A DNA stretch of 64,000 nt from positions 19,357 to 83,356 of the forward strand of contig JBAZIZ010000003.1 in assembly GCA_041651535.1 (NCBI GenBank), in the 5' to 3' direction. The notes below the pieces were generated by a model. That model was not told the DNA's origin, ran no database searches, and was given only the letters and a program-made list of their open reading frames with translations. The stretch is from Patescibacteria group bacterium (lineage in GTDB: Bacteria; Patescibacteriota; Patescibacteriia; Magasanikbacterales; UBA922). Shown piece by piece: positions 36,031 to 56,635 of this stretch (positions within the stretch are counted from its first letter, which is position 1; each line of letters begins with the position of its first letter). A program made the position numbers and the translations under genes.

Positions 36031-36314
36031 AAAATTTTCCTTTTATCCTCTGATATTCGACCCTTTAAATGGTTAAAGAGAGGAAAAAATAAATATCATG
36101 AGGGATTTATAAATAAAAATTGTAGCTAAAATATATATTATTTTTAAAAAAATGTCAAGAGAAACCCCAACTTATAATTTTTAAATTTTTACAATTCATT
36201 TTATTATCCAACAAAATTTATTTATAAACTGTGTTTTATTGCTAATAACTTGACTTTTTTTCTTTTTACATATAGGATAAAATCAGTACACTAACAATTT
36301 AAAAGGAGACCAAA

Positions 36315-37337
36315 ATGAGAAAAAAAGTTTTACCAAAAAAAGCATGGATTTCTTTAACTGGAGTTTGCAACAACCAATGTAAATGGTGTTACAGAAATGG
36401 AAATGAAACTCAAATTTTTATTGATTACGAAAAAGTAAAAGCAAAAATAAAAACTTTTGCTGAAATCGGGATTAAAACCATTACCATTATTGGCGGAGAA
36501 CCCACACTTCATCCAAATTTTAAAGAAATTATAAATGAAATTATTAAATTTGGTATGACTTGTATTATAGTCACAAATGGAAGAAAAAAAATTGAGATAC
36601 CGGAAAAATGGAAGGATAATCCTTTAGTAAAATATGTATTTTCTCTTCATGGCGCAAACGAAGAACATTATTTTAAAAATACTAGTTCTAAAAACGGTTT
36701 TACGGAAATGATAGAAAATGTAACTTATCTTAAAAAAGAAGGGGTCAAACTTTCTGTCAATATAGTCCTTGGGAAGGAAATGATTGATCATCTTGACATC
36801 TTTTACAAATTGATAAACAAATTGTCAATAAAGAAATTGAATTTTACTTACGCAGTTCCTTCGGTTGATGACGAAAATTATGAAGCAATTCCCCTTCGTC
36901 TAGTAGAACTTACAAAAAAAATATATTCTGATTGTACTAAAAATAATATTAAATCTTCTTTTATTTTAAGTTTACCTTGGTGTTTACTTGGTAAAGATGA
37001 TTTGAAATATTTTATCGAAAATAAATTAATAAGTTTCAATTGCCCGGTAAATTATGGGAAAGGATTTTTATTAAAAGAAAATGGTGCTATAGCTCTTTGT
37101 ACGCATCTTTCAAATTATGAAATTTTAAATGCGGCAAAATCTGAAAAAGTTCTTTTAAACGCTAAAAATTTTATAAATTTTTGGAATTCAAAAAAAATAA
37201 AAGAACTCAGAAAGACAGTAAATGTTTACCGTCATGAAAAATGTGTTAAATGCGATTATAGATTTAATTGTAAAGGCGGATGTCCTCTTTGGTGGCAACG
37301 CTTTGACTTTGGTGATATTATAAACAGTCATTATTAG
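36315..37337 (+). CDS. radical SAM/SPASM-domain peptide-modifying enzyme
   Basis: CNNQCKWCY (CX3CX2C) radical-SAM cluster motif. C-terminal CVKCDYRFNCKGGC (CX2CX5CX3C) SPASM motif. GGAG RBS. Confidence 0.8.
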   Translation: MRKKVLPKKAWISLTGVCNNQCKWCYRNGNETQIFIDYEKVKAKIKTFAEIGIKTITIIGGEPTLHPNFKEIINEIIKFGMTCIIVTNGRKKIEIPEKWKDNPLVKYVFSLHGANEEHYFKNTSSKNGFTEMIENVTYLKKEGVKLSVNIVLGKEMIDHLDIFYKLINKLSIKKLNFTYAVPSVDDENYEAIPLRLVELTKKIYSDCTKNNIKSSFILSLPWCLLGKDDLKYFIENKLISFNCPVNYGKGFLLKENGAIALCTHLSNYEILNAAKSEKVLLNAKNFINFWNSKKIKELRKTVNVYRHEKCVKCDYRFNCKGGCPLWWQRFDFGDIINSHY

Positions 37338-37347
37338 GAGGTTAAAA

Positions 37348-37506
37348 ATGACTGCGCAAAAACTTTTCGGCTCTTTGAGAGGAAGCCATATTATTCCTCC
37401 AAAGGGAGAAGAAACAGGGAGAAATTTTAGCTCAGACGGATTTATGTGCAACGGAGATTGCGATGTGGGAGACGAATGTTATTGCGACAATGATCCGGAG
37501 GAGTAG
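37348..37506 (+). CDS. candidate RiPP precursor peptide (52 aa, Cys/Asp-rich C-terminus)
   Basis: AGGAGG RBS 7 nt upstream. MTAQKLFGSLRGSHIIPPKGEETGRNFSSDGFMCNGDCDVGDECYCDNDPEE. Starts 11 nt after the rSAM stop and is followed by a terminator. Not in the ORF track (under 60 aa). Confidence 0.55.
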   Translation: MTAQKLFGSLRGSHIIPPKGEETGRNFSSDGFMCNGDCDVGDECYCDNDPEE

Positions 37507-37516
37507 GAGTTTCGAC

Positions 37517-37560
37517 AGGTGCTTGCACCGCCAGGTTGTTTATTCAACCTGGTTTTTTAT
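37517..37560. terminator. double hairpin (ggtgcttgcacc; ccaggttgtttattcaacctgg) plus T7, closing the rSAM-peptide unit
   Basis: T-run on the plus strand. Convergent with the stop of the minus-strand HExxH gene. Confidence 0.5.
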
Positions 37561-38154
37561 TTTATGCCAAAAAGCAAAAACTGAAATATCAAATTCTTTT
37601 TTAAATAATTTATTAAAAGTATTTATTGTTTTTTTTGAAAGGGCTATTTTGTCTAAAAATGATTTAAATTTTTCTTCTCCAAAAACTACAATTAAACTAT
37701 TTACCATATGAAAACCAAAATTATAAATATAAGCATTATTTTTTTCATAATAAAATTTCAAATTTTTTACCCCTTTAAAATTTGTTTTTTTATTTTGTCC
37801 AGCTAAAAAACAGGCCAAACCTTCATTTAACCACAAAGGTTTTAAATCGTTTATTTTTTCTTTAAAATAAAGATGAACTAATTCGTGTTTTAAAGTACGC
37901 CAGTAATCTTCACGATCTTTATGATTTGATTCTTCTAAAAATTTTTCGTAACATAAAATATGAATGTTACCATCTCTTGCCCAACCAACTAGCCAATCAG
38001 GAGTTTCTTTTTTAAAAAATTTATTTATTTCTTTTCTTGAATTATACAAAAATATTTTAGGCTCTTTTATCTTTACAGAAAAAAAATTTTCAAATTCTTT
38101 TTTTGTTTTTTTAAGTAAATTTTTAGTTTTTAAATCATTAATTTTTAGCTTCAT
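37540..38154 (-). CDS. putative zinc metallopeptidase (HExxH)
   Basis: HELVH with downstream WLNEG (possible third ligand Glu); 204 aa, basic, no signal peptide. Confidence 0.45.
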   Translation of the reverse strand: MKLKINDLKTKNLLKKTKKEFENFFSVKIKEPKIFLYNSRKEINKFFKKETPDWLVGWARDGNIHILCYEKFLEESNHKDREDYWRTLKHELVHLYFKEKINDLKPLWLNEGLACFLAGQNKKTNFKGVKNLKFYYEKNNAYIYNFGFHMVNSLIVVFGEEKFKSFLDKIALSKKTINTFNKLFKKEFDISVFAFWHKIKNQVE

Positions 38155-38170
38155 AAAATTAGCAACTATT

Positions 38171-38340
38171 AAAAATCTTGTTTACCTGCTAATTCTATTT
38201 TTTCTTCATTAGCACATTCATATTTTACTGAGTATGAAAAAGGTTGTGGGGTACAAGCGCAGATAATTTTAGATTTCTGATTCTAGATTTTAGAATTAAA
38301 AATATTATAACACAAAAATTAGATAAAATGAAAATTTAAC
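38171..38340 (-). repeat. truncated remnant of the giant-gene C-terminal cassette plus its upstream promoter element
   Basis: 38176-38258 matches the 5' 80 bp of the cassette (encoding ACTPQPFSYSVKYECANEEKTELAGK) up to the common breakpoint ...gtacaagc|gcagataattttagattt. The extended -10 motif is at 38304-38316. Confidence 0.7.
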
Positions 38341-38481
38341 TTAATTAAGGCAAAAAATAGTCAAATAACTTGACAAAACTGTTAAAAAGTGCTATAATTT
38401 CTTGTTATGAATATTAGGATATTGTATAATATTTATAGCACATTAGATGGATCTTTTAACAATTTATATTGGGAGTTTACC

Positions 38482-39222
38482 ATGAAAAGTCTTACTTTTA
38501 TTGCAGTATTTCTTTCTTTCTTCGCTGTCGCTTGTGGCGGCAAAGAATCTGATTGTTGTATCGTTGTCGATGACGACGAAACAACGGATGAAGTTACCGA
38601 TGAAACTTCGGATGAAACAGCCGATGGGGCAACTGAAGCTGAAATTGATGAGGTGTCTGATGGAGACATCGTTGAAAATGAAAACGAAACTGATGAAGAT
38701 GAAGAAACACTTGATGAAGATTCAGGAGAGGTTACATATCATGAACCTGAGAATCTGGACGAGTGCCAGAATTCAGTTTGTTCTGAGGTATGTGTAGTCG
38801 AGTGGGATCAAATGGGAAAAGATGTAATCTTTTACCTGTTAAATGGAGATAGTATTGAAAAATACTCTGACTGTCCCGTCAGAATCAAACTGGAAATCGG
38901 ATCAAATGACAAATGTTATACTACGGTTATTGAGACTGCGGGCTGTAATGTTACAGCTGGTTTAGACGGACGAAAAGAAGCAAATTCTTCAATGCCTATC
39001 TCTGGTTTACTAACCTACGGAACCGACAAAGTTTACTACGAATTGTCAGAAACAGATGAAACAATTCAGGAAGATGGAGTTTTTAATTACACGAGATGGG
39101 AAAACTGTATTAACACTAATGGAGTAGATCTATGTGAAAAATACGGTTTGGAAAAAGTTCAAATTGAGGGTGAGAGCTTTGGTCTAGCTTCTGAAGAAAA
39201 ATGGGTTGCCATCTCCCAGTAA
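38482..39222 (+). CDS. acidic Cys-rich lipoprotein, paralog C of the cassette-associated family
   Basis: GGGAG RBS. MKSLTFIAVFLSFFAVAC lipobox, D/E/T-rich linker, LDECQNSVCSEVCVVEWDQ motif, C-terminal ...YGLEKVQIEGE. The ORF track starts further upstream; the first ATG with a signal peptide is 38482. Higher GC than the genome. Confidence 0.6.
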   Translation: MKSLTFIAVFLSFFAVACGGKESDCCIVVDDDETTDEVTDETSDETADGATEAEIDEVSDGDIVENENETDEDEETLDEDSGEVTYHEPENLDECQNSVCSEVCVVEWDQMGKDVIFYLLNGDSIEKYSDCPVRIKLEIGSNDKCYTTVIETAGCNVTAGLDGRKEANSSMPISGLLTYGTDKVYYELSETDETIQEDGVFNYTRWENCINTNGVDLCEKYGLEKVQIEGESFGLASEEKWVAISQ

Positions 39223-39239
39223 TTTCACATTACCCAGGT

Positions 39240-39292
39240 TCCGTTTATCTCATTGTAGATAAACACTTTTGAGCCTGGGTTTTCTTTTTTAT
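39240..39292. terminator. long hairpin (acccaggttccgtttatctcattgtagataaac...gagcctgggt) between convergent lipoprotein C and cassette 1
   Basis: Nested inverted repeats followed by ttttctttttt. Confidence 0.45.
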
Positions 39293-39342
39293 AAAAAATA
39301 CTCTATTATCTAGAGTATTTTATTTTTATTTAATATTTTATT

Positions 39343-39730
39343 TTAATCTTCTGTACTTTCAGGCAAAACTACTAGATAACCATCAAAAGCTGTGAAACTT
39401 TTGTTAAAATTATCGTCTATTATCTTACCACATTTATCAGTATCACAATTCCCTTCTCTACACTCTCCATTACAATAATCCCAATTATCAGTTATCTGAA
39501 CTTTTGGTTGATAATAACAATAATAATCATTGTCTAGTAAGTTATAGGTTTTCTTTAAAGTATTTTTTAAATTGGTACAAAGAGTTGTATCAGTACTTGT
39601 TCCACCAAAACAATGTTCTTCTGTAATATCACCTACTTTTTCTTGTTTACCTGCTAATTCTGTTTTTTCTTCATTAGCACATTCATATTTTACTGAGTAT
39701 GAAAAAGGTTGTGGGGTACAAGCGCGGATA
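39343..39730 (-). repeat. orphan C-terminal cassette 1 of the giant protein (variant tail)
   Basis: Encodes ...ACTPQPFSYSVKYECANEEK...KVQITDNW, ~90% identical to the giant C-terminus, then a different 45-aa Cys-rich tail (DYCNGECREGNCDTDKCGKIIDDNFNKSFTAFDGYLVVLPESTED). The ORF-track start is a TTG inside the -10 box, so independent translation is doubtful. Confidence 0.75.
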
Positions 39731-39870
39731 ATTTTAGATTTATGATTCCAGAATTTAGAATTAAAAATATTATAACACAAAAATTCTGTAAAATAAAAAA
39801 GACCCGAGTCAGTTAAGTAATTTCATTTCTGAAAAAACTAACCAACTCGGGTGGGGATGTGGGATTTATT
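39731..39870 (-). promoter_or_regulatory. cassette-associated element: long imperfect hairpin terminator plus extended -10 TTTGTGTTATAAT
   Basis: 139/140 bp shared with 41232-41370 (minus a 7-bp tagaatt unit). Contains acccgagtcggttaag...ctaaccaactcgggt, which forms a stem on the minus strand followed by ttttttatttt, then the promoter 13-mer. Confidence 0.55.
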
Positions 39871-40762
39871 TAGGGAGTGGAACGAAGTCAATATCCGACC
39901 ACCTATAACACGGGCCTTCTATACCTTCAACATATACTGGTTCATCTCCTTCTTCTTCACACCAATTTATTCCATCATTATTGATACAACTTGTGTAATC
40001 TCCGTAGTTGTATTTTTTTTTCCCTTGCCAAGTTTCACCAGTATCAGAAAAGAAAAAGTAAATTAATGTGCCATAATACGGATTATTAAGGTCTTCTTTT
40101 GTCCCCTGAACAGGTATTTTTTCAGACTCAATTTGTGAATAATCCCAAGCTATTTCTGTATGATCTACAAAGTTCGCATAACATATGTTATGCGAAGTTT
40201 CAAGCCAAATATCAAGATAGCTATCTTTACTATCAATTTCTTCTCCATTTTTGGCTAGATTGAACCAAAAAATCCTTTCTTTTGTCTCCTCATCCCACAT
40301 AAGAAGACAAAGCTGAGAACACGGAGAATCTTTACATTCTTCCAGATTCTGCAGCTTTACAAAACTTGGATCAGCTGGGACCTCATAATCTGTACAATAC
40401 AGGTTACTATCCCAAGCTTCTCTACAGTAGAAAACTTCTGGATCCTGTCCAGAATTTTCTCTGCATTTTCTTTCTCCTTGCCAGAAGCCATCGACACAGA
40501 CAAGTATCCACTGTCCATTATCAACAGTAGAGCACATTCTGTCTCCATCAGTACAAACTGGTTCAGTTGTGTCCTCGTCAGTGGACACTGTATCATCTGC
40601 TTCATCAGTTGATTCGACGACATCTTCATCCGGATTTTCATCTATAGACTCATCAGTCTTAGACTCGTTATCCGGAAGGGTTGGTTCTTCTCCACTGCAT
40701 GATACAGCGAAGAAAGAAAGAAACACAATTACAAAGATAATGCATTTCATGGTAATCTCCAT
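39866..40762 (-). CDS. acidic Cys-rich lipoprotein, paralog B
   Basis: MEITMKCIIFVIVFLSFFAVSCSG lipobox; acidic linker near-identical to paralog A; LEECKDSPCSQLCLLMWDE motif; divergent C-terminal domain. Confidence 0.6.
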   Translation of the reverse strand: MEITMKCIIFVIVFLSFFAVSCSGEEPTLPDNESKTDESIDENPDEDVVESTDEADDTVSTDEDTTEPVCTDGDRMCSTVDNGQWILVCVDGFWQGERKCRENSGQDPEVFYCREAWDSNLYCTDYEVPADPSFVKLQNLEECKDSPCSQLCLLMWDEETKERIFWFNLAKNGEEIDSKDSYLDIWLETSHNICYANFVDHTEIAWDYSQIESEKIPVQGTKEDLNNPYYGTLIYFFFSDTGETWQGKKKYNYGDYTSCINNDGINWCEEEGDEPVYVEGIEGPCYRWSDIDFVPLPK

Positions 40763-40858
40763 CTATAAAGTTATATAAATCCCTTGTAAAGAACAATATT
40801 AAATATGATTATTTAACAATATAATATAGCACTTTTTTGCTCTTTTGTCAATATTAAC

Positions 40859-41231
40859 CTAGTTTTCTGTGTTTTCAGGTAAAACTACGAGATATCCATT
40901 GAATTTTGTAAATGATTTGTCATTATCCTTATTACATTCCTTAGGACTTGTTCCATAAAGCCCGTTATTACAATACCCCCAATTATCAGTTATCTGAACT
41001 TTTGGTTGATAATAACAATAATAATCATTGTCTAGTAAGTTATAGGTTTTCTTTAAAGTATTTTTTAAATTGGTACAAAGAGTTGTATCAGTACTTGGTC
41101 CACCAAAACAATGTTCTTCTGTAATATCACCTACTTTTTCTTGTTTACCTGCTAATTCTGTTTTTTCTTCATTAGCACATTCATATTTTACTGAATATAG
41201 GAAAGGTTGTGGAGTACAAGCGCAGATAATT
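40859..41231 (-). repeat. orphan C-terminal cassette 2, an exact copy of the giant gene 3' end
   Basis: 40859-41221 is identical to 42187-42549 (the stop codon and last 121 codons of the giant gene). No in-frame start, because an extra tagaatt unit shifts the upstream TTG/ATG out of frame. Confidence 0.85.
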
Positions 41232-41370
41232 TTAGATTTATGATTCTAGATTTTAGAATTTAGAATTAAAAATATTATAACACAAAAATTCTGTAAAATA
41301 AAAAAGACCCGAGTCGGTTAAGTAATTTCATTTCTGAAAAAACTAACCAACTCGGGTGGGGATGTGGGAT
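41232..41370 (-). promoter_or_regulatory. cassette-associated terminator/promoter element, copy 2
   Basis: Identical to 39731-39870 apart from a tagaatt indel and 1 SNP. Extended -10 motif at 41274-41286. Confidence 0.55.
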
Positions 41371-42090
41371 TTATATTACAAACACAAAATAAAATGATCC
41401 TCCGAAGAAAGTTTCCACACCTTCTATCTCAACGACTTCCAATCCAAATTCTTTACATGTATCACGACCTGCCTGAGCGTCATAACACTCTACATAACCC
41501 TCCATTCTCAATTCTTTTTCTTCTCTAAAAAAGAAGCTGAATTGTCTCTCAGTTCCCAAATAAGAGACATGTTCAAGAGGTATTTTATAGCCTTCGGTAA
41601 TTGCATCTTCTTTTCCAATAAATGAATTTTCTGGAACAGAGAAAAAACATTTTTCAAAATTATCCACAAAAAGTTTAAACTTGAAACTTCTTTGGTCATC
41701 ACAGTTTACGCTATTACTTGTCTTTTTTTCACACCATTTACCGCTATTTGCTCCTTCATCCCACAGAAGGAAACAAATTTCTGAACAAGAAGAATTTTTG
41801 CATTCTTCCAAGCTTTGTAATTCTGTATAGACAATCTCCTGATCATCTATATCAGAATCATTTTCTTCTTCAGATTCAGTATCGATTTCAGTTGTGTCCT
41901 CGTCATTGGACACTGTATCATCTTTTACTTCATCATTTTCTTCGACGACATCTTCGTCTGGATTTTCGTCTATAGACTCATCAGTCTTAGACTCGTTATC
42001 CGTAAGGTTTGGTTCTTCTCCACTGCATGATACAGCGAAGAAAGAAAGAAACACAATTACAAAGATAATGCATTTCATGGTAATCTCCAT
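41371..42090 (-). CDS. acidic Cys-rich lipoprotein, paralog A (immediately downstream of the giant gene)
   Basis: Same lipoprotein signal and acidic linker as paralog B; LEECKNSSCSEICFLLWDE motif; C-terminal ...CKEFGLEVVEIEGVE. Confidence 0.6.
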   Translation of the reverse strand: MEITMKCIIFVIVFLSFFAVSCSGEEPNLTDNESKTDESIDENPDEDVVEENDEVKDDTVSNDEDTTEIDTESEEENDSDIDDQEIVYTELQSLEECKNSSCSEICFLLWDEGANSGKWCEKKTSNSVNCDDQRSFKFKLFVDNFEKCFFSVPENSFIGKEDAITEGYKIPLEHVSYLGTERQFSFFFREEKELRMEGYVECYDAQAGRDTCKEFGLEVVEIEGVETFFGGSFYFVFVI

Positions 42091-42186
42091 CTATAAAGTT
42101 ATATAAATCCCTTGTAAAGAACAATATTAAATATGATTATTTAACAATATAATATAGCACTTTTTTGCTCTTTTGTCAATATTAAC

Positions 42187-45100
42187 CTAGTTTTCTGTGT
42201 TTTCAGGTAAAACTACGAGATATCCATTGAATTTTGTAAATGATTTGTCATTATCCTTATTACATTCCTTAGGACTTGTTCCATAAAGCCCGTTATTACA
42301 ATACCCCCAATTATCAGTTATCTGAACTTTTGGTTGATAATAACAATAATAATCATTGTCTAGTAAGTTATAGGTTTTCTTTAAAGTATTTTTTAAATTG
42401 GTACAAAGAGTTGTATCAGTACTTGGTCCACCAAAACAATGTTCTTCTGTAATATCACCTACTTTTTCTTGTTTACCTGCTAATTCTGTTTTTTCTTCAT
42501 TAGCACATTCATATTTTACTGAATATAGGAAAGGTTGTGGAGTACAAGCACGGGTAGCATCACCAAAGAAATTTTCTTCTGCATTTTTTATACACGAATT
42601 ATTTGCACATTCACTATTTTCTTTACAAGTGATTTGTGTGCCAGAACATCTACCAATTTCGTTTGGTTCATCATCACAATATGGTTTTCTATTTTTAAAC
42701 AAACCTTTTGTACCACTTCCTCCTATCACTTCATCATTTTTTCCAGTATCTAAAATAACTGTTTTTATCGGCATTTGATCATCATCAGCATAAGCGTAAA
42801 AAGATAAATAAGCTTCAAAAGGAGAATTTTTTATAATGATTTTTTTGCCTGTACTATTGTTTACTGAAGTCTCTGTAATATTATCAATACTTAAATTATC
42901 AAAATCTCCTAACACATATTTTTTATTTATTTCATCATATTTTACTCCAAAAATTCGTGGTGAATTTATAGAATAAAGTTTTTCAAAGAAAGTTTGTCCT
43001 GTTCCACTACTCAAATGATCAATTAATGAAGTTCCGGGTGCTTGTTTATCTTTAGATTCATCAAATTTATAATAAGCGGCAGCAAACACATCCATAAAAG
43101 ATGTATTATTTGGAAAAGATGCAGTTATAAATTCATGTTCATTTAATGTAGTAAACTGTTTATATTCTGGATTAATATCAGACGCGGTAAAATCAAGTGC
43201 TTTAAACAAACCATTTGTTTTTGTTGGGATTCCAGAAGTTTCAAAATCATAGTCAATTATTTGGCTTTTATCTATTACTGAAAAATAATAAAATCTATCA
43301 AAATCTATTACTGTTGTTTTATTATTTTGCAAATCCGTCTCTGTTTTAAAAACATCATCTGTTCTTTTTGTTAAAGATCCAAAAGGAGCATTTGAATAAT
43401 TTTTTATTTTTGAAACTGAATCCACTAAAGTTTCTATGTAAATATCAGAATAAGTGGTAGCATTTTTTAAATTTTTAGTTAAAGTTTTATCCAAACCTTT
43501 TTTTCCAGACCACAAAATATCTGTTCGCGGTTTTGTGTTATTATTTAACAAATTATTATCATAAAGTACTCCATATTCAGTACATTTACTATTTAATTCT
43601 ACGATAACTGCAAGACGCATACCATAACTTTCGCCGTCTGAATTATCATGAGCATCTATAAATCTAGATATATAGCCAAGAAAATCTCCATCTTCATTAA
43701 AATCCAAACCAATAGCTAATAAAGTTGCATTTTCTTCTTCATTCAATCTATCTGAATCCCCACGTCCAAAATAAAAAGGATCAGATTGTTTATTAATAGT
43801 ATTTTCTAATGATATATCTTGACAATTATTTTCTGTGCACAGAGAATTTAAAGTGGTTTTAGAATTATTTTGATTTAAAATAGAATCTGAATAAAAATAT
43901 CCAACATATCTTGTTTTAATTTCATTCTTTCCTGTATCGTTATACAATTCATAGGTAAAATTAAAATCACTATTATTTTTAAAGAGAACAGTATTTTCTT
44001 TTTCTAATAAATAAGAAACAAAATTTAAACCCGAATTAGTTGAAGATCCTGAGGCCATACAAAATTTTTCATTATAACCTGTACAATAATTTTTAACAGG
44101 TGCATATAATATTTTGTTTGTGCTTTGTCTTAATTTATTAAAATCAATAGTAAAAGTTTCTGCATCTAAAAGACCTATGGTTCTCCCTTCTGCTCCAGAT
44201 ATATGTTCAATTGGTACAATATGAATTTTTGCTATTTCTTCTTCTTTAATTTTATTTTCTAGTTCACTTATATAAATAAAACTATTATTTAAGTTAGATC
44301 CATTAAAACTTTTAAAATTAGGGGATAAAAATAAATTATAAAGATTAAATTTACTTGCTTTTTCTCCATCTCCACTATCATTACCATCATGATAAAAACC
44401 TAAAGTTTCAATTTTTGTTCCAGAATTATATGAATTATATGAAGAAGAAGTTATTTCTAAATTACTAGAATTAAAACGTATTGGGTGAATTAAAGTACCC
44501 ACATCACCATATTCGCCTGAATCTTGACCTACAGCTGGAGCAAATGATTTTACTATTCCATTTGTTAAAACTGTATAATAAGGATCATTTACGGCATCAA
44601 ATCTTAATATTCTAATATTTTTTAAATCAATTTGTCTATTCTCTTTATAAGTATCAATATTTTTTGCCCATTCATTTAACATGATATATTGTTGTTTTTC
44701 ATCGTTACTATTAATAACTTCTTTATATTTATCTGAAACTACGCCACCTCCGCCAGTGTTTTCTTCTTCTGCTTCAAAATACAGACCGGCTACTTCTTGT
44801 CTATTAAAATAATTATAAATTTTAAAGCTACATTCTCCTGAATTATAGTCATCATTACAATCGGCTGTAAAAACTGGTCTATTAAAAGCTAAATTATATT
44901 GATTATTTAATATAGTATCATTTATAGTTTGTCCATTAATCACAGTTCCTAAACCATATTCAGGAGTTTGTCCTTGTTCAGTACTATTTAAACAGAAAAC
45001 TTGGCCAAAATCATTTGAATCGGAATTCCCTTCAGTTGGATTACCTTCTGGGTTATAACCTGCTTCTGGGTTATAATTATATAAATCCATTTGTGAAATA

Positions 45101-48100
45101 CTACGGTCAGAATAATACCAAGTCAAACAAGGATAATAAGTTTTATTACCAGCTTTTTCGCCACGACTTTTATCATATTCCATACAAACACCAGTCACTC
45201 CATAATATGTTCCCTGTTGTTCTATTTTATTACATACTCCTCCTTCACCACAATCTGTATCAATAAAACAGACATCACCTGTTTTTTCACCAATTCCAGA
45301 ACAAATTCCTTGTGGAATAAATGCGTAATCAGCATTACTTTGTTTAAAATCTAGAGGCCAGTAATCAATAGTACCATCTTTATATTCTACTTTTGTATAA
45401 AGACAACTGCCAAATCCAACTGAATCATCTGGATTAGTAAAAATATTTGAACTATATTGATAATAATTTGCATTATCATATTTTGATTTTATTTTTGTCC
45501 ATTCAGTTCTATTAAAATCAGTGTCGTCTAAATTAAAATAATATCTGCCACAACTTACTTCACTTGAATCTTCATCATCTTCATTTAAATTAAAACAATC
45601 AATATATTTATCTGAATCAAAATTAGCTATTAAACGAATATCAAAAGGTGAATCTTCTTCAGGGAAAGTTTTACAAGATTCTGCATATAAATTTTCTTTT
45701 ATTTTATCTCCAGATAAAACAGCTATTAAATCTTGTTCATTTGTTACTCCTACAAAACTTGTTTCATTTTTTCCATCTACTGGTAAAATACATTTTCCAT
45801 CGTAACACACTCCAGAGGAACCATCTTTTCCAGTACAAGCAGAAAAATCAGGTTTTGTGATTGATCCAGATCCAAATAAAGCTGGTATTTTACAACTATT
45901 ATTATCAGATTCATAAATCAAATAAGCACGGGATGCATTACCATCTTGCAAATAAATAGTTTTATAACCATCCAAATTTCTTTTATTCAAAAAAGCATAA
46001 CCAGTATAATCTTTGTCATACCAACTTGGATAAGCAAATTCACTAATTCTTTCTACATATTTATTTTTATCCAAAATCTTTTCGTCATCATCAGGTTTAT
46101 TTTGTAATTTATAATTAGCACAAACTTCCACTTTGTTTCCATCACTATCTTCTTCAATAGTTTTACTAGTACATTCTAAATATTGTTCACATTCTCGATC
46201 TATTTTTACTTTTATGAGCAAATTTGATTGATTGTTTGTGTCTGAAACTGGAGAAACTAGATTATAATCATTTTCTCGGCTATTTTTATAAGTAGAAGTT
46301 GCATTATATAATTTATTTGGATATTCTTCTCTATCTAATAAAATACAACCTTGTTCTTGACTAACCATGCCACCACAACTAGCAGTCTGAGAAGTTAATT
46401 TATCATTATATAAATTATAGTATTCTTTTGGTTGATTATCAGAATTCAAATCAGCCCAATCTAAAAATTTTGTACAACCATTATTTTCTTCATCACATAA
46501 ACCGACTTTACCTTGATAACCAGCCGAGCCATTTGAAGGTAAATCACCGCAAGGCAATTCGCCTATCTTGTCACAAAAACCTTTTTCACCACATTGTGAA
46601 TCTTCTGTACAATACATATTTGAAGGATAAGAACAATAGCCAATAGCATCCACAACAACACACATCGCGCCTTCAGGACAGTCCCCGCTGTTATAACATA
46701 ATCCTGGTGGATCTAATTTACAAGAACCTACCCCTGACATATACCAAGCTGGGTCATCATTACCTACTTTTTTATATTCACACAAAGTATTTCCAGCTAA
46801 AACTGGATCTTTGAAATAAGAAATTAGATTATTTGCTGAGTAACTACCACAACCAACCAAGCTATCGTTACACAAAATTTCACTATATAATTCTGGTTTA
46901 TTTAATAAAAATACATCACCAAAAACATAAGAATCGTCATAATTTTTTCCAGCTTTGATTTGTGATTCTTTTCCCATTTCTGTACAACCAATGTCATCAC
47001 TATTACAAATATGATCATTTTTTAAAGTCAAATATACAGGTTCAGAAGTCGGTGGAATTACAACAGTAGAAGTAACTATTTCTAAATTTTTTGTATACAA
47101 CCCGGCAATATTTAAAGTGTAAAAATCATAACTATCTGATATTTTTATTTTTTTAGCAAACACTGGATTTTTTATAAATCCAAAATTAAATTCAGAAACT
47201 GAACTGATTATGTTATTATCTTCTGAATCTAAAACACAACCTGTAGAATTATTACAAAATAAATTATAAACAGCATAATATTCATCTCCATAATCATCGT
47301 TTCTATTATAAGTATCTTGAAGTTTTGCACAACCAATCGCATCTTCCCGACATAATTTTGCAAAACCAGTAAGATTAATAACACTGCCATCATTTTCTGT
47401 ATCACTATTTACTGTATAAGAACTACAACCTAAATATCTACCTGGAAATCCATCAAGCGGAGTATTATCACAAACTTCTGGAACATCATAACCTAAATTT
47501 GTTTTCCAAGAATCTTTGATAACAGCTAATCGATCATCTGCAGTATCTCCTACTTTATTTAAACGAATATTATCTAAGAAAAATATTTTATTAGTAACAT
47601 TTGATTCAAAAAATAATTGAACTGAAGCAGTGTTAATTCCATTTACTAAAATTGGTCCTAATTTATATTCTTGCCATTCATCATTTATTGACAAAGGACG
47701 CAAAGCACTAGTCAAATTATCAGTAGTTAAATATGTTTCATTTCCAGATTGAGAAAAATAAACATTTAAATTTTGGATATCACCTTTTGCCCAAAAAGTA
47801 AGTTCATACCATTTGTCATCATTTAAATTATCAAACAAAATTCCAGCGTTAAAATTATAATAAGCTGTACCACCAATAACTCGAAGAGAATGTCCACCAA
47901 CATAAGTTGATTCAGTTTTTATATCAACATCTCCCTGACTACAAGATCCACTTGATCCATTTTCACACCAATTTTCTTTTAAAATACTTAGAGCATTTTC
48001 ATCATCGCCTGCTGGTTCAAAATCATTTTCAAAAGTTTTATGTAAATTATTTCCTGTATTACCAATATATAATCGACAACCATCTGCTGAAGCTGGACAA

Positions 48101-51100
48101 GATCTAGCTTCTTCTGGAATAGAATAATATTCACAAGCTCCTTTATCATTTCCTTGATCAACATAAAAACCATTATCATAACAACGTAGACAATTATTGT
48201 TTTGCCATTTTCCACCTTTTTGTAAACAAATATTTTGATTATTTATATCATCATCTTCATACATGTTCAAATCAGTTTTACGATAAAGAGAACATTGATC
48301 AGAAACAGTAATTGTTTTATTTAAACTGCGATAAAAAATATTTCCAGCATCATCATAAAGTGCTGTACAATTATATTTATCATAATCTTCCACTGCTTCA
48401 CCATTTATATATTTATTATATTTTTCTCGATTACAAGTATTGTAACTTTCATTCAAAGAAATACTACTATCATTTTCATAAGCTGGGGAACCAACTTCAA
48501 AATGAGATTTAATTTCTGCTGAAACAGAAGTAAGATTTTCAATAAAAATTTCATCTTCTGAACTTATTTTTTTCAAATTATGTTTTTTCAAAACATAACC
48601 AGTTTTATCACTACCTTCCCAAGAATAAAATACAGATGCATTTTCACCATCAGGTAATTCACATTTTTTTGTGTCTGAAAAATAAACCAAGCTATTGGCT
48701 CCATTTCCAACTTCATCAACTTTTGTGAATTCAGAACAACCAGCATAAGTTGCTTGGCAAGTTTCAGCAGTACTTGGAATAAAATATAAAGGGAAAACAG
48801 AATCTTCAAAAGCTGAAGCATTTTGTTTGAATGTATCATAACCCACACAAGTTTCTGGACACCAATTTTGTAATTCAACTTTTCCACCTATTTCTTCTCC
48901 ACTATTTACTTCAGTATAACTTGCACAACCAACTTCATCTGGTAAACAAACACCAGCAAAATCTTCACATTCTTTTGACCTATCAGCTAAATAAAGTAAA
49001 TCAGCTTTTGATTTTGGCCATTCGATTAGCGAAGTAGTTTTATCTACATCATAACAAGCTAAATAATCAGGAGCTTTTTTTAAATGAATTTGATCTTGAT
49101 AAGTACTAGATGTAGTTTCTAAAGTTTCTGGATTATAACTATATTCTTTTTTCTCCCAATTAAATAATTCGCAACCATTAGCATCAGAAGAACAAGAGTA
49201 TTGCTCAGCTTTAGAATTTAAAAACAAATTTTGATTTCCTCCGAGAGACGCACCTTTTATATCATTGTTCAAATAAAAACTATTTATCCAATTTCCAGAA
49301 TCATTTTTATTTAAACTGTAAGCTTGGCAACCAACTGCATCAGCATTACAATCTCCGTATTCTAAAGTACGTGATAAATAAGAAGCTTCATCGCCAGTTA
49401 AATTATTAGAAAAAGTCTTACAAGTATTATAAATTGGTTCACAAGAATCTCCATAAAATTTCCAAGTATTTTTTTCTTGCAAACAATAACCGTATTTTTC
49501 ACATTTGCCATTATTATCTTCTACTACGCAAGAATCATAATCAATAACTTGTTCTTGGCGAGTATTTGTACCATCCAAAATTTCTGAACTGTAGGTTTTT
49601 AATTTTATTCTAGCTTCTGGAGCTTTGATTATCCAATTTGGATTTATAAGACCATAATAATTACCTTCAGTATAATAAGCATTTACAACTGTTTCCAAAG
49701 TTGGGTTTCCTAATTCTGTAGCTTTTTCGGCAACGATTTCAAAACCAAGAGGAATTATTCTAGCTTTACGCATTTTTTGTAAATTTGAATAACATAATCC
49801 TTTTGTATAACAATCTTTTGTTTGATTTTCATTTGAATATTCAGAATAAAATATTTGATTACCATTAATTATTCCTTCATCAATCGCTTGTTTAATCGTC
49901 ATTGGATTACCAGTATTGTATCTATTAATTACTGTTTGCCAACTGGAATCCATAACACAATTATCATTAGCAGGTTCATCTGGACAACTGACAAATTGTG
50001 AAACATAATCGTATTTTTCCAAACTCAAATTTGGTAAATCTTTTATCAAATAAGAGTAAGCATTTTCAACTGCTTTGCGATTATAATTTAAAACACTGGC
50101 GTAAGGATTTGTTACTGATTCTTTCCCTGATTCTTTGCTAGTTGGGAATAAACCATCTTGTAAAATATTTTGTGCTAAAGTTGAAACAAAAGTATTAGCA
50201 AAAGTAGAAATTGCTGTTGGAATAATTTGCCAACCGCTCACTGCATACATTCCTGCCATTTGAGTAGCACTCATTTCACCCTGTTGTTTAGCTCCAACTG
50301 CTTCTGATTCAGTTTTAACTGTTTGGGCTGGGGTTTTTATTTCTCCAGAAATCACATCTTTTACAGCTTTAAAACCATCACCTTCGGCTCTTTCAGCATT
50401 TGCTGATTCAGTTGCTTTAGCGTTCAATGAATCGATATTACTTTTAGCAACTAAAACTGTTCCTAGACCACCTTGAGTTACATCCAGATTAGCGTTGAAA
50501 ATTTCAGCAGCTGAATATTTATCTTGAACATTATCCCATCCACTTTTCATTTCATTCCAAGAACAAGATGGCTGTGGACCTTTTTCACTGCCTGAACCAT
50601 ATTCATTACTATAAATATTGCTTAAACCAACTTGTAAACTTAATTGAAAATTTAAATCTGGTGGAGTACAAAAATTCATCCCCAATACTCCTTTTCCAAA
50701 ATCAGCAATGGCTGACGCTGCAGAATCCAAAGCTACATTAGCAAAATAATCTCCTGGACTTTCTTGAAAAACAGCTGGTTTTTTTCCAACTGCTGAGTCT
50801 GCTAGATAAGTTGCAGCATCATAAGCTAATTTTCTAGTAAAATAAGAAGCAGCATTTATCAAAGAACCCAAAGCAGAACTTAATAAAGTATCTAAAATTT
50901 GATCTTTTATGTCCGCTGTTTTTTCTGGCAAACTTTCAATAACTGAAACGGGAAAACCTGCTTTTGCAATTTGTGGTCTAAACATGCCAATTGCAAAAAA
51001 ATTAAAAAATAAAAAAATACTGAGCAAAATCGACAAGGAAATTTTTTTAGCTCGATTTTTTTTAAACATAATTTTGTAGTTAGTATTTATCAAAAAATAA

Positions 51101-56420: not shown

Positions 56421-56493
56421 GCGCCATTAGCTCAGTCGGTAGAGCAGTTGCCTCTTAAGCAAACGGTCGCAGGTTCAAATCCTGCATGGCGCA
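56421..56493 (+). tRNA. tRNA-Lys (anticodon CUU)
   Basis: Manual cloverleaf: acceptor GCGCCAT/ATGGCGC, D arm GCTC-AGTCGGTA-GAGC, anticodon loop CUCUUAA, T arm GCAGG-TTCAAAT-CCTGC, discriminator A, no encoded CCA. Confidence 0.75.
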
Positions 56494-56560
56494 CAAAAAA
56501 ACAATTTATATTAAGATTTATAAATCCAAAATCATAAATCGTAAATATTAAATTTACTAG

Positions 56561-56632
56561 GCTTCTGTGGTGAAATGGATATCACGCTTGGCTTCGGACC
56601 AAGTATTCCGGGTTCGAATCCTGGCGGGAGCA
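56561..56632 (+). tRNA. tRNA-Arg (anticodon UCG)
   Basis: Manual cloverleaf: acceptor GCTTCTG/CGGGAGC, D arm GTGA-AATGGATA-TCAC, anticodon stem CTTGG/CCAAG with loop CUUCGGA, T arm CCGGG-TTCGAAT-CCTGG. Confidence 0.75.
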
Positions 56633-56635
56633 CAA

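What the first reader, a model, noticed from the sequence alone, without database searches (positions are those of the whole stretch)
36315..38154. RiPP-like cluster: radical-SAM/SPASM enzyme, an unannotated 52-aa Cys/Asp-rich precursor peptide and an HExxH protein
The 340-aa enzyme has a CX3CX2C radical-SAM motif and a C-terminal CX2CX5CX3C SPASM motif. These mark peptide-modifying rSAM maturases such as sactipeptide/ranthipeptide synthases, anSME and PqqE. Eleven nt after its stop, behind a perfect AGGAGG RBS, lies a 52-codon ORF missing from the ORF track. It has a plausible leader (MTAQKLFGSLRGSHIIPPKGEETGRNFSSDGF) and an acidic four-Cys core (MCNGDCDVGDECYCDNDPEE). A double-hairpin terminator follows. 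The Cys-X-X-Asp/Glu spacing would suit thioether (Cys to acidic or adjacent residue) cross-linking, but the chemistry cannot be inferred. The convergent downstream gene carries an HExxH zinc-peptidase motif and could be the leader peptidase. It is on the opposite strand, so the association is only positional.
Basis: partly seen in the sequence, partly recalled or inferred. Interest (0 to 1): 0.7.

Follow-up and report, generated by a model that had tools for sequence, protein, structure and literature searches.

The report
Uncharacterised radical-SAM peptide-modification cassette
A tiny-genome Patescibacteria bacterium carries a three-gene module (an iron-sulfur radical enzyme, an unannotated 52-residue Cys/Asp-rich peptide and a small zinc-protease-like protein) that recurs in many ultra-small bacteria and archaea and most likely makes a modified peptide of a family nobody has described.

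Summary
36315..37337(+) encodes a radical-SAM enzyme with CX3CX2C and a C-terminal CX2CX5CX3C; it passes PF04055 and TIGR04085. Ten nt after its stop, behind AGGAGG, lies a 52-codon ORF (37348..37506) followed by an intrinsic terminator. A convergent 204-aa HExxH protein follows.

The small ORF is a real gene. About 25 distinct metagenomic and MAG loci with enzyme homologues at 26-66% identity carry an adjacent peptide. These peptides share a leader (L..FF..L.G.HI) and a Cys/Asp-rich C-terminus. A profile built without the window peptide finds it as the only significant hit among 663 window ORFs (E 1.5e-7). NCBI's annotation skips it.

About 20 of these loci also encode a small HExxH protein. 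Most belong to a novel zincin-like family; the window's M1/MA-like type recurs in four loci. DPANN archaea carry the same trio in another gene order.

No Pfam or NCBIfam model covers the peptide or the common HExxH family. The enzyme falls far below every curated maturase cutoff and has no RRE domain. No paper on the family was found.

Best reading: a new RiPP-like cassette. Thioether (Cys-Asp) cross-linking and leader removal by the zincin are inferred, not shown.

The parts
36250..36278 (+). Promoter-like site (TTGACT-17-TAGGAT), 37 nt upstream of the enzyme's start codon
   Evidence: Consensus scan only. The number of such sites in the region is not above the shuffle expectation, so this is a weak part.
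36315..37337 (+). Radical-SAM/SPASM enzyme, 340 aa, with no N-terminal RRE domain. Conserved Cys: C18/C22/C25 (SAM cluster) and C207, C223, C243, C262, C310, C313, C319, C323.
   Evidence: PF04055 E 2e-26. TIGR04085 39.1 bits vs 27. Invariant Cys in a 29-sequence alignment. AF2 model pLDDT 89. Foldseek top hits are SuiB, SkfB and anSME.
37336..37341 (+). AGGAGG ribosome-binding site for the peptide gene; it overlaps the enzyme's stop codon
   Evidence: Read directly from the sequence. The homologue L003 has GGAGG 8 nt before its peptide ATG.
37348..37440 (+). Leader part of the precursor peptide (residues 1-31). The conserved motif is L6-F7..S9-L10.G12.H14-I15.
   Evidence: Family alignment A2: L10 and G12 are at least 90% conserved, and the consensus is M..L..FF..L.G.HI.K.
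37441..37506 (+). Core part of the precursor peptide (FMCNGDCDVGDECYCDNDPEE plus stop), Cys/Asp-rich
   Evidence: C34 is at least 90% conserved and C38 is invariant across 22 peptides. The 'C-D' unit is conserved. The closest homologue has FLCNGECDVTGDKGCDNDP.
37530..37563 (+). Intrinsic terminator (9-bp stem, 6-nt loop, T-run) ending the enzyme-peptide operon. It overlaps the 3' end of the convergent HExxH gene.
   Evidence: Terminator scan and MFE fold.
37540..38154 (-). 204-aa HExxH protein ('c1' type), gluzincin-like: H90ExxH94...W108LNE111G
   Evidence: Sub-threshold Peptidase_M1 and Peptidase_MA_2 hits. The family profile hits the HExxH..WLNE region of tricorn F3 and aminopeptidase N. 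It recurs beside the cassette in L003, L004 and L050.

Best explanation
This is a self-contained three-gene RiPP-type cassette.

The enzyme and the 52-aa peptide are co-transcribed. The rSAM/SPASM enzyme recognises the conserved N-terminal leader (LF.SL.G.HI). Because it has no RRE domain, recognition must be direct or through a partner. The enzyme then uses a 5'-deoxyadenosyl radical to modify the Cys/Asp-rich core.

The most likely modification is one or more intramolecular thioether bridges. Each would run from a Cys sulfur, held on an auxiliary Fe-S cluster, to a carbon of a nearby acidic residue, in the manner of ranthipeptides and PapB.

The neighbouring small HExxH zincin then trims off the leader.

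Shown here:
- the genes and their motifs;
- conservation and co-evolution of the enzyme-peptide pair;
- recurrent linkage to HExxH proteins.

Inferred:
- that the peptide is the enzyme's substrate (strong inference, about 0.8);
- that the HExxH protein is the leader peptidase (about 0.5);
- thioether chemistry (about 0.35);
- the biological role, which is unknown. No exporter is encoded nearby.
For: - Operon anatomy: a 10-nt gap, an RBS and a terminator.
- Peptide adjacency: about 25 distinct loci with enzyme identity of 26-66% keep an adjacent peptide with the same leader motif and a Cys-rich C-terminus. Gene order varies: rSAM-pep-HExxH, rSAM-HExxH-pep (L011), pep-HExxH-rSAM (L045), and pep-rSAM-HExxH in Pacearchaeota.
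- Leave-out profile test: E 1.5e-7.
- Coding-type divergence from L003: 8 synonymous codon changes among 21 conserved residues, and mismatches by codon position of 19/18/31.
- Core type tracks enzyme clade: CNG[DE]CDV..CDNDP at 66% identity, GIDCCDV at 39-46%, CDC repeats at about 30-35%, LCQCQCRR at 26%. This fits enzyme-substrate co-evolution.
- One precursor carries two tandem cores (P0138), a RiPP hallmark.
- Fold: nearest to the peptide maturases SuiB and SkfB, and to anSME, which also acts on Cys.
- HExxH proteins lie in about 20 of the peptide-bearing loci. The c2 type weakly hits only zincin peptidase families: SprT-like, M76, M78, DUF5700 and MA_2. The c1 type matches the M1 catalytic motif. 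In the window and L003 clade, c1 replaces c2. This suggests an interchangeable, that is proteolytic, role.
- Precedent for Cys-Asp chemistry: PapB cross-links Cys-Xn-Asp/Glu for n = 0-6 (PMC9413430).
Against: - No biochemical data exist.
- The enzyme lacks the RRE domain that most leader-dependent SPASM maturases use.
- The canonical last Cys of the 7-Cys SPASM motif is absent in the whole family.
- It scores far below the cutoff of every curated maturase family, including SCIFF/ranthipeptide, sactipeptide, PqqE and MftC. The chemistry therefore cannot be transferred by homology.
- In the window the HExxH gene is convergent, not co-transcribed.
- Some peptide-bearing loci with at least 2.5 kb of flank show no HExxH gene (L025, L029, L043).
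- HExxH proteins in RiPP clusters can be aKG-dependent hydroxylases of Asp rather than proteases (PMC12636437).
- No transporter or immunity gene is nearby.
Confidence: 0.7

Rival explanations
1. The enzyme does modify the peptide, but the product is not a thioether-bridged secreted RiPP. It is an intracellular Cys/Asp-rich metal-binding peptide or a peptide-derived cofactor, on the logic of PQQ and mycofactocin (rSAM/SPASM plus small peptide plus peptidase, no exporter). The modification could be something else: Cys oxidation to formylglycine, epimerisation, or a C-C or C-O link.
For: No transporter, immunity or signal-peptide feature appears in any locus examined. Cores such as CDCHCECDCLEIDCQCDCHCDC resemble metal-chelating repeats. 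anSME, which oxidises Cys, is among the nearest folds and shares the RRE-less architecture of about 340-370 aa.
Against: Core sequences vary widely in length and repeat number. That is more typical of specialised metabolites than of a cofactor, whose core would be invariant. The enzyme sits well below the PqqE, MftC and anSME cutoffs.
Confidence: 0.2
2. The HExxH protein is not the leader peptidase. It could be an aKG/Fe(II)-dependent HExxH hydroxylase acting on the Asp-rich core. It could be a leader-binding or immunity factor. In the window specifically, it could be an unrelated convergent neighbour.
For: aKG-HExxH enzymes that beta-hydroxylate Asp and His occur fused or adjacent to rSAM enzymes in RiPP clusters (PMC12636437). 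The cores here are Asp-rich. The window gene is on the opposite strand. Every Pfam hit for c1 and c2 is below its cutoff.
Against: No c1 or c2 sequence hits the aKG-HExxH family model (TIGR04267/IPR026337) in NCBIfam, even at permissive E-values. The c1 type carries the gluzincin HExxH...WLNEG signature of M1 peptidases. The c2 type's weak hits are all to zincin peptidases. The c1 type recurs in four independent loci, at enzyme identities of 26%, 45%, 66% and 100%, so mere neighbourhood is unlikely.
Confidence: 0.3
3. The 52-codon ORF is not a gene. The GC-rich stretch would then be a structured RNA, an attenuator, or a chance ORF.
For: The stretch is 43-50% GC in a 28% GC genome. Its GC3 is 0.42 against 0.11-0.19 in neighbouring genes. 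A 241-nt fold that includes the terminator gives z = -3.7. NCBI does not annotate the ORF.
Against: No Rfam family matches, even at E <= 10. Without the terminator the fold is unexceptional: z -1.5 in the window and -0.85 in L003. Conservation is at the amino-acid level across nucleotide-divergent loci, with synonymous changes. The ORF has a perfect RBS.
Confidence: 0.03
4. The rSAM enzyme acts on a non-peptide or large-protein substrate (anSME-, MoaA-, NirJ- or tungsten-cofactor-type), and the adjacent peptide is incidental.
For: The top NCBIfam hits by score include MoaA (N-terminal half only) and the tungsten-cofactor maturase across the full length. A 29%-identical Peregrinibacteria homologue sits in a metabolic operon with no peptide (L060).
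Against: All those hits are 4- to 8-fold below their cutoffs. The peptide adjacency survives changes of gene order and of domain of life. No sulfatase, molybdopterin or heme d1 genes flank the cassette.
Confidence: 0.05

Closest known systems
Ranthipeptide systems (PapB/PapA freyrasin; SCIFF maturases such as CteB and Tte1186)
   Same: An rSAM/SPASM enzyme next to a short precursor whose core is rich in Cys and acidic residues. PapB links Cys to a downstream Asp or Glu, and in vitro accepts spacings of 0-6 residues (PMC9413430). CteB is among the structural neighbours.
   Different: There is no RRE domain. The enzyme is 340 aa rather than about 450. TIGR03974 scores 21 bits against a cutoff of 425. 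The leader and core are unrelated to SCIFF or PapA, and no NCBIfam precursor model hits. The partner is a zincin rather than a PCAT or other protease. The cassette is found in CPR and DPANN organisms.
anSME (anaerobic sulfatase-maturating enzyme, TIGR03942; PDB 4K36-39)
   Same: The same two-domain architecture without an RRE and a similar length. It acts on a Cys in a peptide segment. It is a structural neighbour at TM 0.66-0.69.
   Different: The enzyme scores 50 bits against a cutoff of 349. No sulfatase gene is nearby. A dedicated small precursor peptide sits there instead. The final Cys of the 7-Cys motif is missing.
SuiB/streptide and SkfB/sporulation killing factor maturases
   Same: These are the best Foldseek and PDB-profile matches: SuiB E 6e-16 with TM 0.70-0.75, and SkfB E 3e-21 by profile. 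Both pair a peptide-modifying rSAM with an adjacent precursor gene.
   Different: Identity is 15-16%. SuiB has an N-terminal RRE. SkfB has a Twitch domain with a [2Fe-2S] cluster rather than a SPASM domain. Their substrates (a Lys-Trp link; a Cys-Met sactionine) are unrelated to this core.
ACGX-repeat, SynChlorMet and GeoRSP rSAM/SPASM systems (TIGR04340, TIGR04250/04251, TIGR04303)
   Same: RRE-less SPASM enzymes of about 340-360 aa that align end to end with this one. They are bioinformatically defined cassettes with Cys-rich small peptides.
   Different: Scores are 41-61 bits against cutoffs of 400. The peptide has no ACGX repeats and no selenocysteine context. The accessory genes differ.
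aKG-dependent HExxH hydroxylases in rSAM RiPP clusters (ChlBH, BpmH, PflC; IPR026337/TIGR04267)
   Same: A HExxH protein genetically coupled to an rSAM enzyme and a precursor peptide. The known members hydroxylate Asp and His (PMC12636437).
   Different: None of the HExxH proteins tested here (the window's c1 and representatives of c2 and c3) matches that family model. They are much smaller (140-230 aa). They carry a downstream Glu, as gluzincins do, and weakly match only peptidase families.

Membership tests
Radical SAM superfamily (PF04055) | CX3CX2C cluster motif and a match to the core-domain profile | tested here: met
   C18x3C22x2C25. PF04055 scores 93.6 bits against a cutoff of 29.5. 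The three Cys are invariant in 29 homologues.
SPASM subfamily (TIGR04085 / PF13186) | Match to the C-terminal SPASM domain profile | tested here: met
   TIGR04085 scores 39.1 bits against 27 on residues 220-340. PF13186 is just below its cutoff (17.8 vs 21.5).
SPASM subfamily (TIGR04085 / PF13186) | Full 7-Cys motif CX9-15GX4C-gap-CX2CX5CX3C-gap-C, ligating two auxiliary [4Fe-4S] clusters | tested here: inconclusive
   C243-x18-(G257x4)C262 and C310x2C313x5C319x3C323 are invariant. No Cys follows C323 in any of the 29 homologues. C207 and C223 are conserved upstream, so eight non-SAM Cys exist, but which cluster they ligate could not be checked.
RiPP maturase-precursor pair (general) | A short precursor gene conserved beside the enzyme, with a conserved leader and a variable core | tested here: met
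   About 25 distinct loci. Alignment A2. Leave-out HMM E 1.5e-7.
RiPP maturase-precursor pair (general) | RRE (PqqD-like) leader-recognition domain, in the enzyme or as a separate partner | tested here: not met
   The rSAM motif starts at residue 18. No PF05402 or PqqD hit was found in the enzyme or its neighbours. An RRE is typical of RiPP systems but not obligatory.
Ranthipeptide / SCIFF maturase (TIGR03974) | Profile score above cutoff, and a SCIFF- or PapA-type precursor | tested here: not met
   20.9 bits against 425. No curated precursor model hits the peptides.
Ranthipeptide / sactipeptide (chemical definition) | A Cys-S to C-alpha, C-beta or C-gamma thioether in the mature peptide | not testable with these tools
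   This needs MS/MS and NMR of the modified peptide.
Sactipeptide maturase (StsB family NF045574; SkfB, CteB structures) | Profile score above cutoff | tested here: not met
   60.3 bits against 625, over the N-terminal half only.
anSME (TIGR03942) | Profile score above cutoff, and a sulfatase substrate gene | tested here: not met
   50.1 bits against 349. No sulfatase was found in any locus.
PqqE / MftC cofactor maturases | Profile score above cutoff, with PqqA/PqqD or MftA/MftB partners | tested here: not met
   PqqE 41.7 bits against 381; MftC 48.5 against 265. The partners are absent.
Gluzincin metallopeptidase (clan MA; Peptidase_M1 / Peptidase_MA_2), for the window HExxH protein | HExxH plus a downstream Glu as third zinc ligand | tested here: met
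   H90, E91, H94 and E111 ('WLNEG') are invariant in four homologues. The region aligns to the M1 catalytic motif of tricorn F3 and aminopeptidase N.
Gluzincin metallopeptidase (clan MA; Peptidase_M1 / Peptidase_MA_2), for the window HExxH protein | Profile score above the Pfam cutoff, or a confirmed fold | tested here: inconclusive
   PF01433 scores 23.4 bits against 27.7, and PF13485 scores 20.1 against 32.4. The single-sequence AF2 model failed (pLDDT 41).
aKG-dependent HExxH hydroxylase (TIGR04267 / IPR026337) | Match to the family profile | tested here: not met
   No NCBIfam hit for c1 at E <= 0.1, or for c2 and c3 at E <= 10.

The most novel reading that the evidence does not exclude
This is a previously unrecognised RiPP class specific to ultra-small episymbiotic prokaryotes (CPR/Patescibacteria bacteria and DPANN archaea) and shared across the two domains. 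An RRE-less SPASM enzyme would install Cys-Asp or other cross-links in Cys/Asp-repeat cores. Dedicated minimal zincins of a new family would mature the peptide. The product could be a metal-binding or host-interaction peptide, made by organisms generally thought to have almost no specialised metabolism.
Probability: 0.35. Interest if true: 0.75.

Novelty: new variant of a known kind. Interest (0 to 1): 0.55.

Why it matters
CPR bacteria and DPANN archaea have minimal genomes and depend on hosts, and few natural-product pathways are known from them. A compact cassette that is conserved but diversifying in both groups would be a defined entry point to their chemistry.

It also offers several specific things:
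- a SPASM enzyme that must read a leader without an RRE;
- a possible non-canonical auxiliary-cluster ligation;
- two unclassified small zincin families with a candidate substrate.

The practical test is simple. Three short genes can be synthesised and co-expressed.

Tried and rejected
- Structured-RNA reading of the GC-rich stretch. Rfam at gathering and at E <= 10 gave nothing relevant. No tRNA or tmRNA lies there. Fold z-scores without the terminator are ordinary. Rejected.
- Searching the 5.8-billion-protein index with the window peptide alone found only itself. A family profile was needed.
- Structure of the HExxH protein. The single-sequence model was unusable (pLDDT 41), so no fold search was run on it.
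- PDB profile search for the c2 HExxH family: no meaningful hit.
- A PDB sequence search with the SPASM fragment, meant to map the Cys ligands, was uninformative beyond the CteB motif.
- Defence-system reading. PADLOC gave only generic viperin-core similarity to the rSAM domain. Rejected.
- Phage origin. The viral-contig scan returned only generic rSAM cores, at most 29% identity over the N-terminal half.
- c1 and c2 HExxH families as one family. hhalign aligns only the motif region (probability 13%). They are treated as separate.
- Seven literature searches (Patescibacteria/CPR/DPANN with rSAM/SPASM/RiPP; HExxH with rSAM; Cys-rich with archaea; PapB/ranthipeptide) found no description of this cassette.
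Full report
**Source and setting**

The window is 28% GC. The enzyme at 36315..37337 is identical to NCBI MFA5211258.1, 'MAG: radical SAM protein [Patescibacteria group bacterium]', on a 159-kb contig. Upstream, on the other strand, lie rpsB, tsf, secG, a solute-binding protein and RNase J. Downstream lie putative lipoproteins and a 2974-aa ORF. The cassette is therefore an isolated insertion among unrelated genes.

**Checking the observation**

The sequence shows exactly what was described:
- a 340-aa ORF with C18x3C22x2C25 and C310x2C313x5C319x3C323;
- AGGAGG at 37336-37341, overlapping its stop codon;
- a 52-codon ORF starting 6 nt later, at 37348;
- a terminator-like hairpin with a T-run at 37530-37553;
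- a convergent 204-aa ORF with HELVH.

PF04055 matches at E 2e-26. The SPASM domain model TIGR04085 passes its cutoff on the C-terminal fragment (39.1 vs 27). Pfam's SPASM model falls just short (17.8 vs 21.5).

NCBI's accessions for the enzyme and the HExxH protein are consecutive, so the peptide is indeed unannotated there. JGI, ENA and Logan gene calls do include it.

**Is the small ORF a gene or an RNA?**

The ORF is 43-50% GC in an AT-rich genome, so I first tested an RNA reading.
- Rfam gave nothing at gathering or permissive thresholds.
- The initial fold z-score of -3.7 came from the terminator. Without it, z is -1.5, and -0.85 in the closest homologue.

The protein reading is strongly supported.
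- The 66%-identical enzyme P0002 (locus L003) is followed by a 49-aa ORF, MKVKTLFNSLNGEHI...FLCNGECDVTGDKGCDNDP, and by a convergent HExxH gene.
- Against the window peptide, 21 of 49 residues are identical. Eight of these use different synonymous codons. Mismatches by codon position are 19/18/31.
- Across metagenome and genome scans and targeted look-ups, about 25 distinct loci carry a 40-80-aa ORF beside the enzyme. The consensus leader is M..L..FF..L.G.HI.K, and the C-terminus is Cys-rich and usually Asp-rich.
- An HMM built from 20 of these peptides, excluding the window and L003, finds 37348..37506 as the only significant hit among all 663 window ORFs of at least 20 aa. It scores E 1.5e-7, and the runner-up scores 0.21.

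**The peptide family**

The core type follows the enzyme clade:

| Core type | Enzyme identity to window | Where |
|---|---|---|
| F[ML]CNG[DE]CDV....CDNDP | 100% and 66% | window and L003 only |
| G-I-D-C-C-D-V-x-x-(G/T)-(D/C)-C | about 39-46% | main group |
| CDCxCECDC... repeats | about 30-35% | |
| SPLCQCQCRR | about 26% | |
| DCDCVDCPSDCICMDCQDC, encoded upstream of the enzyme | 29% | Pacearchaeota |

One precursor has two tandem cores (P0138).

The family is rare and unnamed. A profile search of 1.84 billion cluster representatives gave 28 hits at E <= 1e-3. A word-indexed search of 5.8 billion proteins gave 10. None carries more than a 'hypothetical protein' name. No Pfam or NCBIfam model matches.

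**The enzyme**

The 29-sequence alignment shows invariant Cys at positions 18, 22 and 25, and at 223, 243, 262, 310, 313, 319 and 323. C207 is nearly invariant. G257x4C262 fits the SPASM 'GX4C' element.

No Cys follows C323 in any member, so the canonical seventh Cys is absent. Eight non-SAM Cys are conserved. I could not determine whether C207 completes the second auxiliary cluster or whether one cluster has an open or non-Cys site.

There is no N-terminal RRE, because the SAM motif begins at residue 18.

All curated NCBIfam maturase families score 4- to 20-fold below their cutoffs:

| Family | Bits | Cutoff |
|---|---|---|
| W-cofactor maturase | 68 | 380 |
| ScmE | 61 | 400 |
| StsB | 60 | 625 |
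| ACGX | 51 | 400 |
| anSME | 50 | 349 |
| MftC | 48 | 265 |
| PqqE | 42 | 381 |

The AF2 model is confident (pLDDT 89, pTM 0.88). Its best solved-structure matches are SuiB (E 6e-16, TM 0.70-0.75), SkfB, anSME, BlsE, PqqE, CteB and TigE (the sequence-profile view is). This places it among SPASM/Twitch enzymes that act on peptides or proteins.

A 29%-identical Peregrinibacteria homologue sits in a metabolic operon with no peptide (L060). This marks the outer edge of the family.

**The HExxH partner**

All-against-all clustering of neighbouring ORFs and family HMMs show that most cassettes include a 140-230-aa HExxH protein.
- The commonest type (c2) lies directly after the peptide in about 17 distinct loci. 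Its conserved pattern is YGxGGSY...HEIIHL.IE...HW.KERIVDL, with H, E, H and a Glu 17 residues downstream invariant.
- Types c3 and c4 cross-hit c2. The c3 type is the one found in the Pacearchaeota loci.
- The c2 type has no Pfam hit above cutoff. Its weak hits are all to zincin peptidase families: SprT-like in 5 of 14 members, plus M76, M78, DUF5700, DUF2268, WLM and MA_2.

The window's protein belongs to a different type (c1).
- H90, E91, H94, Y96, P106, W108, E111 and G112 are invariant.
- It has sub-threshold Peptidase_M1 and MA_2 hits.
- Its profile aligns to the HExxH...WLNE catalytic segment of tricorn F3 and aminopeptidase N.
- It occurs in four independent loci: the window, L003, L004 (together with c2) and L050 (together with c2).

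In the window and L003 clade c1 is the only HExxH protein. This looks like replacement of one metallopeptidase by another, and it is my main reason for favouring a proteolytic role.

The alternative is an aKG-dependent HExxH hydroxylase of Asp, as known from rSAM-linked RiPP clusters (PMC12636437). It remains open, but sequence does not support it: no hit to TIGR04267 was found. Three peptide-bearing loci with adequate flank lack any HExxH gene (L025, L029, L043).

**Mechanism proposed**

The enzyme and peptide are co-transcribed. The enzyme binds the conserved leader and modifies the core. The zincin removes the leader.

I favour thioether formation between Cys and a nearby acidic residue, for three reasons:
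- the one invariant core feature is Cys next to or near Asp;
- SPASM enzymes acting on Cys-rich cores typically make sacti- or ranthi-type bridges;
- PapB cross-links Cys to a downstream Asp or Glu at spacings of 0-6 (PMC9413430).

This step is an inference with roughly one-in-three confidence. Cofactor-like or metal-binding products are serious alternatives, given the lack of any exporter.

**Distribution**

MAG titles of the loci include Patescibacteria, Minisyncoccia, Parcubacteria, Paceibacterota and Saccharibacteria. A few are labelled Gammaproteobacteria, Thiotrichaceae, Bdellovibrionales or Clostridia, and these binning labels are unverified. Archaeal homologues are named Pacearchaeota and Nanoarchaeia.

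Several copies are decaying, with stops or truncations in the enzyme (L014, L021/22, L027/28). No family member was found in viral contigs. No defence-system model applies.

**Novelty and score**

The kind of system, an rSAM/SPASM enzyme with an adjacent precursor, is well known, and many such pairs await study. This variant is distinct in several ways:
- the precursor family and the main zincin family are absent from Pfam and NCBIfam;
- the enzyme belongs to no curated family;
- it lacks an RRE and the last SPASM Cys;
- the cassette is concentrated in CPR and DPANN organisms.

Seven literature searches found no description of it. I rate it a new variant of a known kind, with interest 0.55.

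Noticed in passing
window 38176-42400: Three paralogous putative lipoproteins (38407..39222 +, 39866..40762 -, 41371..42090 -). Each has a lipobox-like N-terminus (LSFFAV[AS]C), an acidic D/E/T-rich linker and a Cys-containing C-terminal domain. They sit among 83-98% identical direct DNA repeats of 106-300 nt spaced 1.3-1.5 kb apart. None has a Pfam hit. A 145-aa Cys-rich ORF (39343..39780 -) lies between them.
   Followed up: partly
window 42187-51111 (-): A giant 2974-aa ORF with an N-terminal hydrophobic segment. Its only Pfam hit is a weak CBM_4_9 match. It is probably a surface protein typical of CPR episymbionts.
   Followed up: no
window 37348-37506; L003 4314-4463: The peptide gene has strikingly high third-position GC: 0.42 against 0.11-0.19 in neighbouring genes in the window, and 0.66 against 0.28-0.36 in L003. 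It prefers TGC, GAC and GAG against the genomic bias. The archaeal locus L056 does not show this. RNA folding does not explain it. Unexplained.
   Followed up: partly
L014 3700-4000; L021/L022/L048; L027/L028: Several homologous cassettes carry in-frame stops, or truncated or split rSAM genes. These are either decaying copies or assembly errors. L021/L022 also hold a second rSAM gene and both c2 and c3 HExxH genes.
   Followed up: no
P0138 (91 aa, from the representative library): A precursor with two tandem copies of the core (AIDCCDVEQGDCG ... AIDCCDVESGDCG) behind a single leader.
   Followed up: no
L054 1259-4041: A MAG labelled Clostridia has two tandem rSAM/SPASM paralogues of this family. 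Between them lies a Cys/Pro-rich 56-aa ORF (MEKLKELLKRRNATNIVPKERPAG...CHECGG...CSPC). No HExxH gene is present.
   Followed up: no
window 56421-56633: tRNA-Lys(CTT) and tRNA-Arg(TCG) lie 67 nt apart. They are the only Rfam or ARAGORN hits in the 64-kb window.
   Followed up: no
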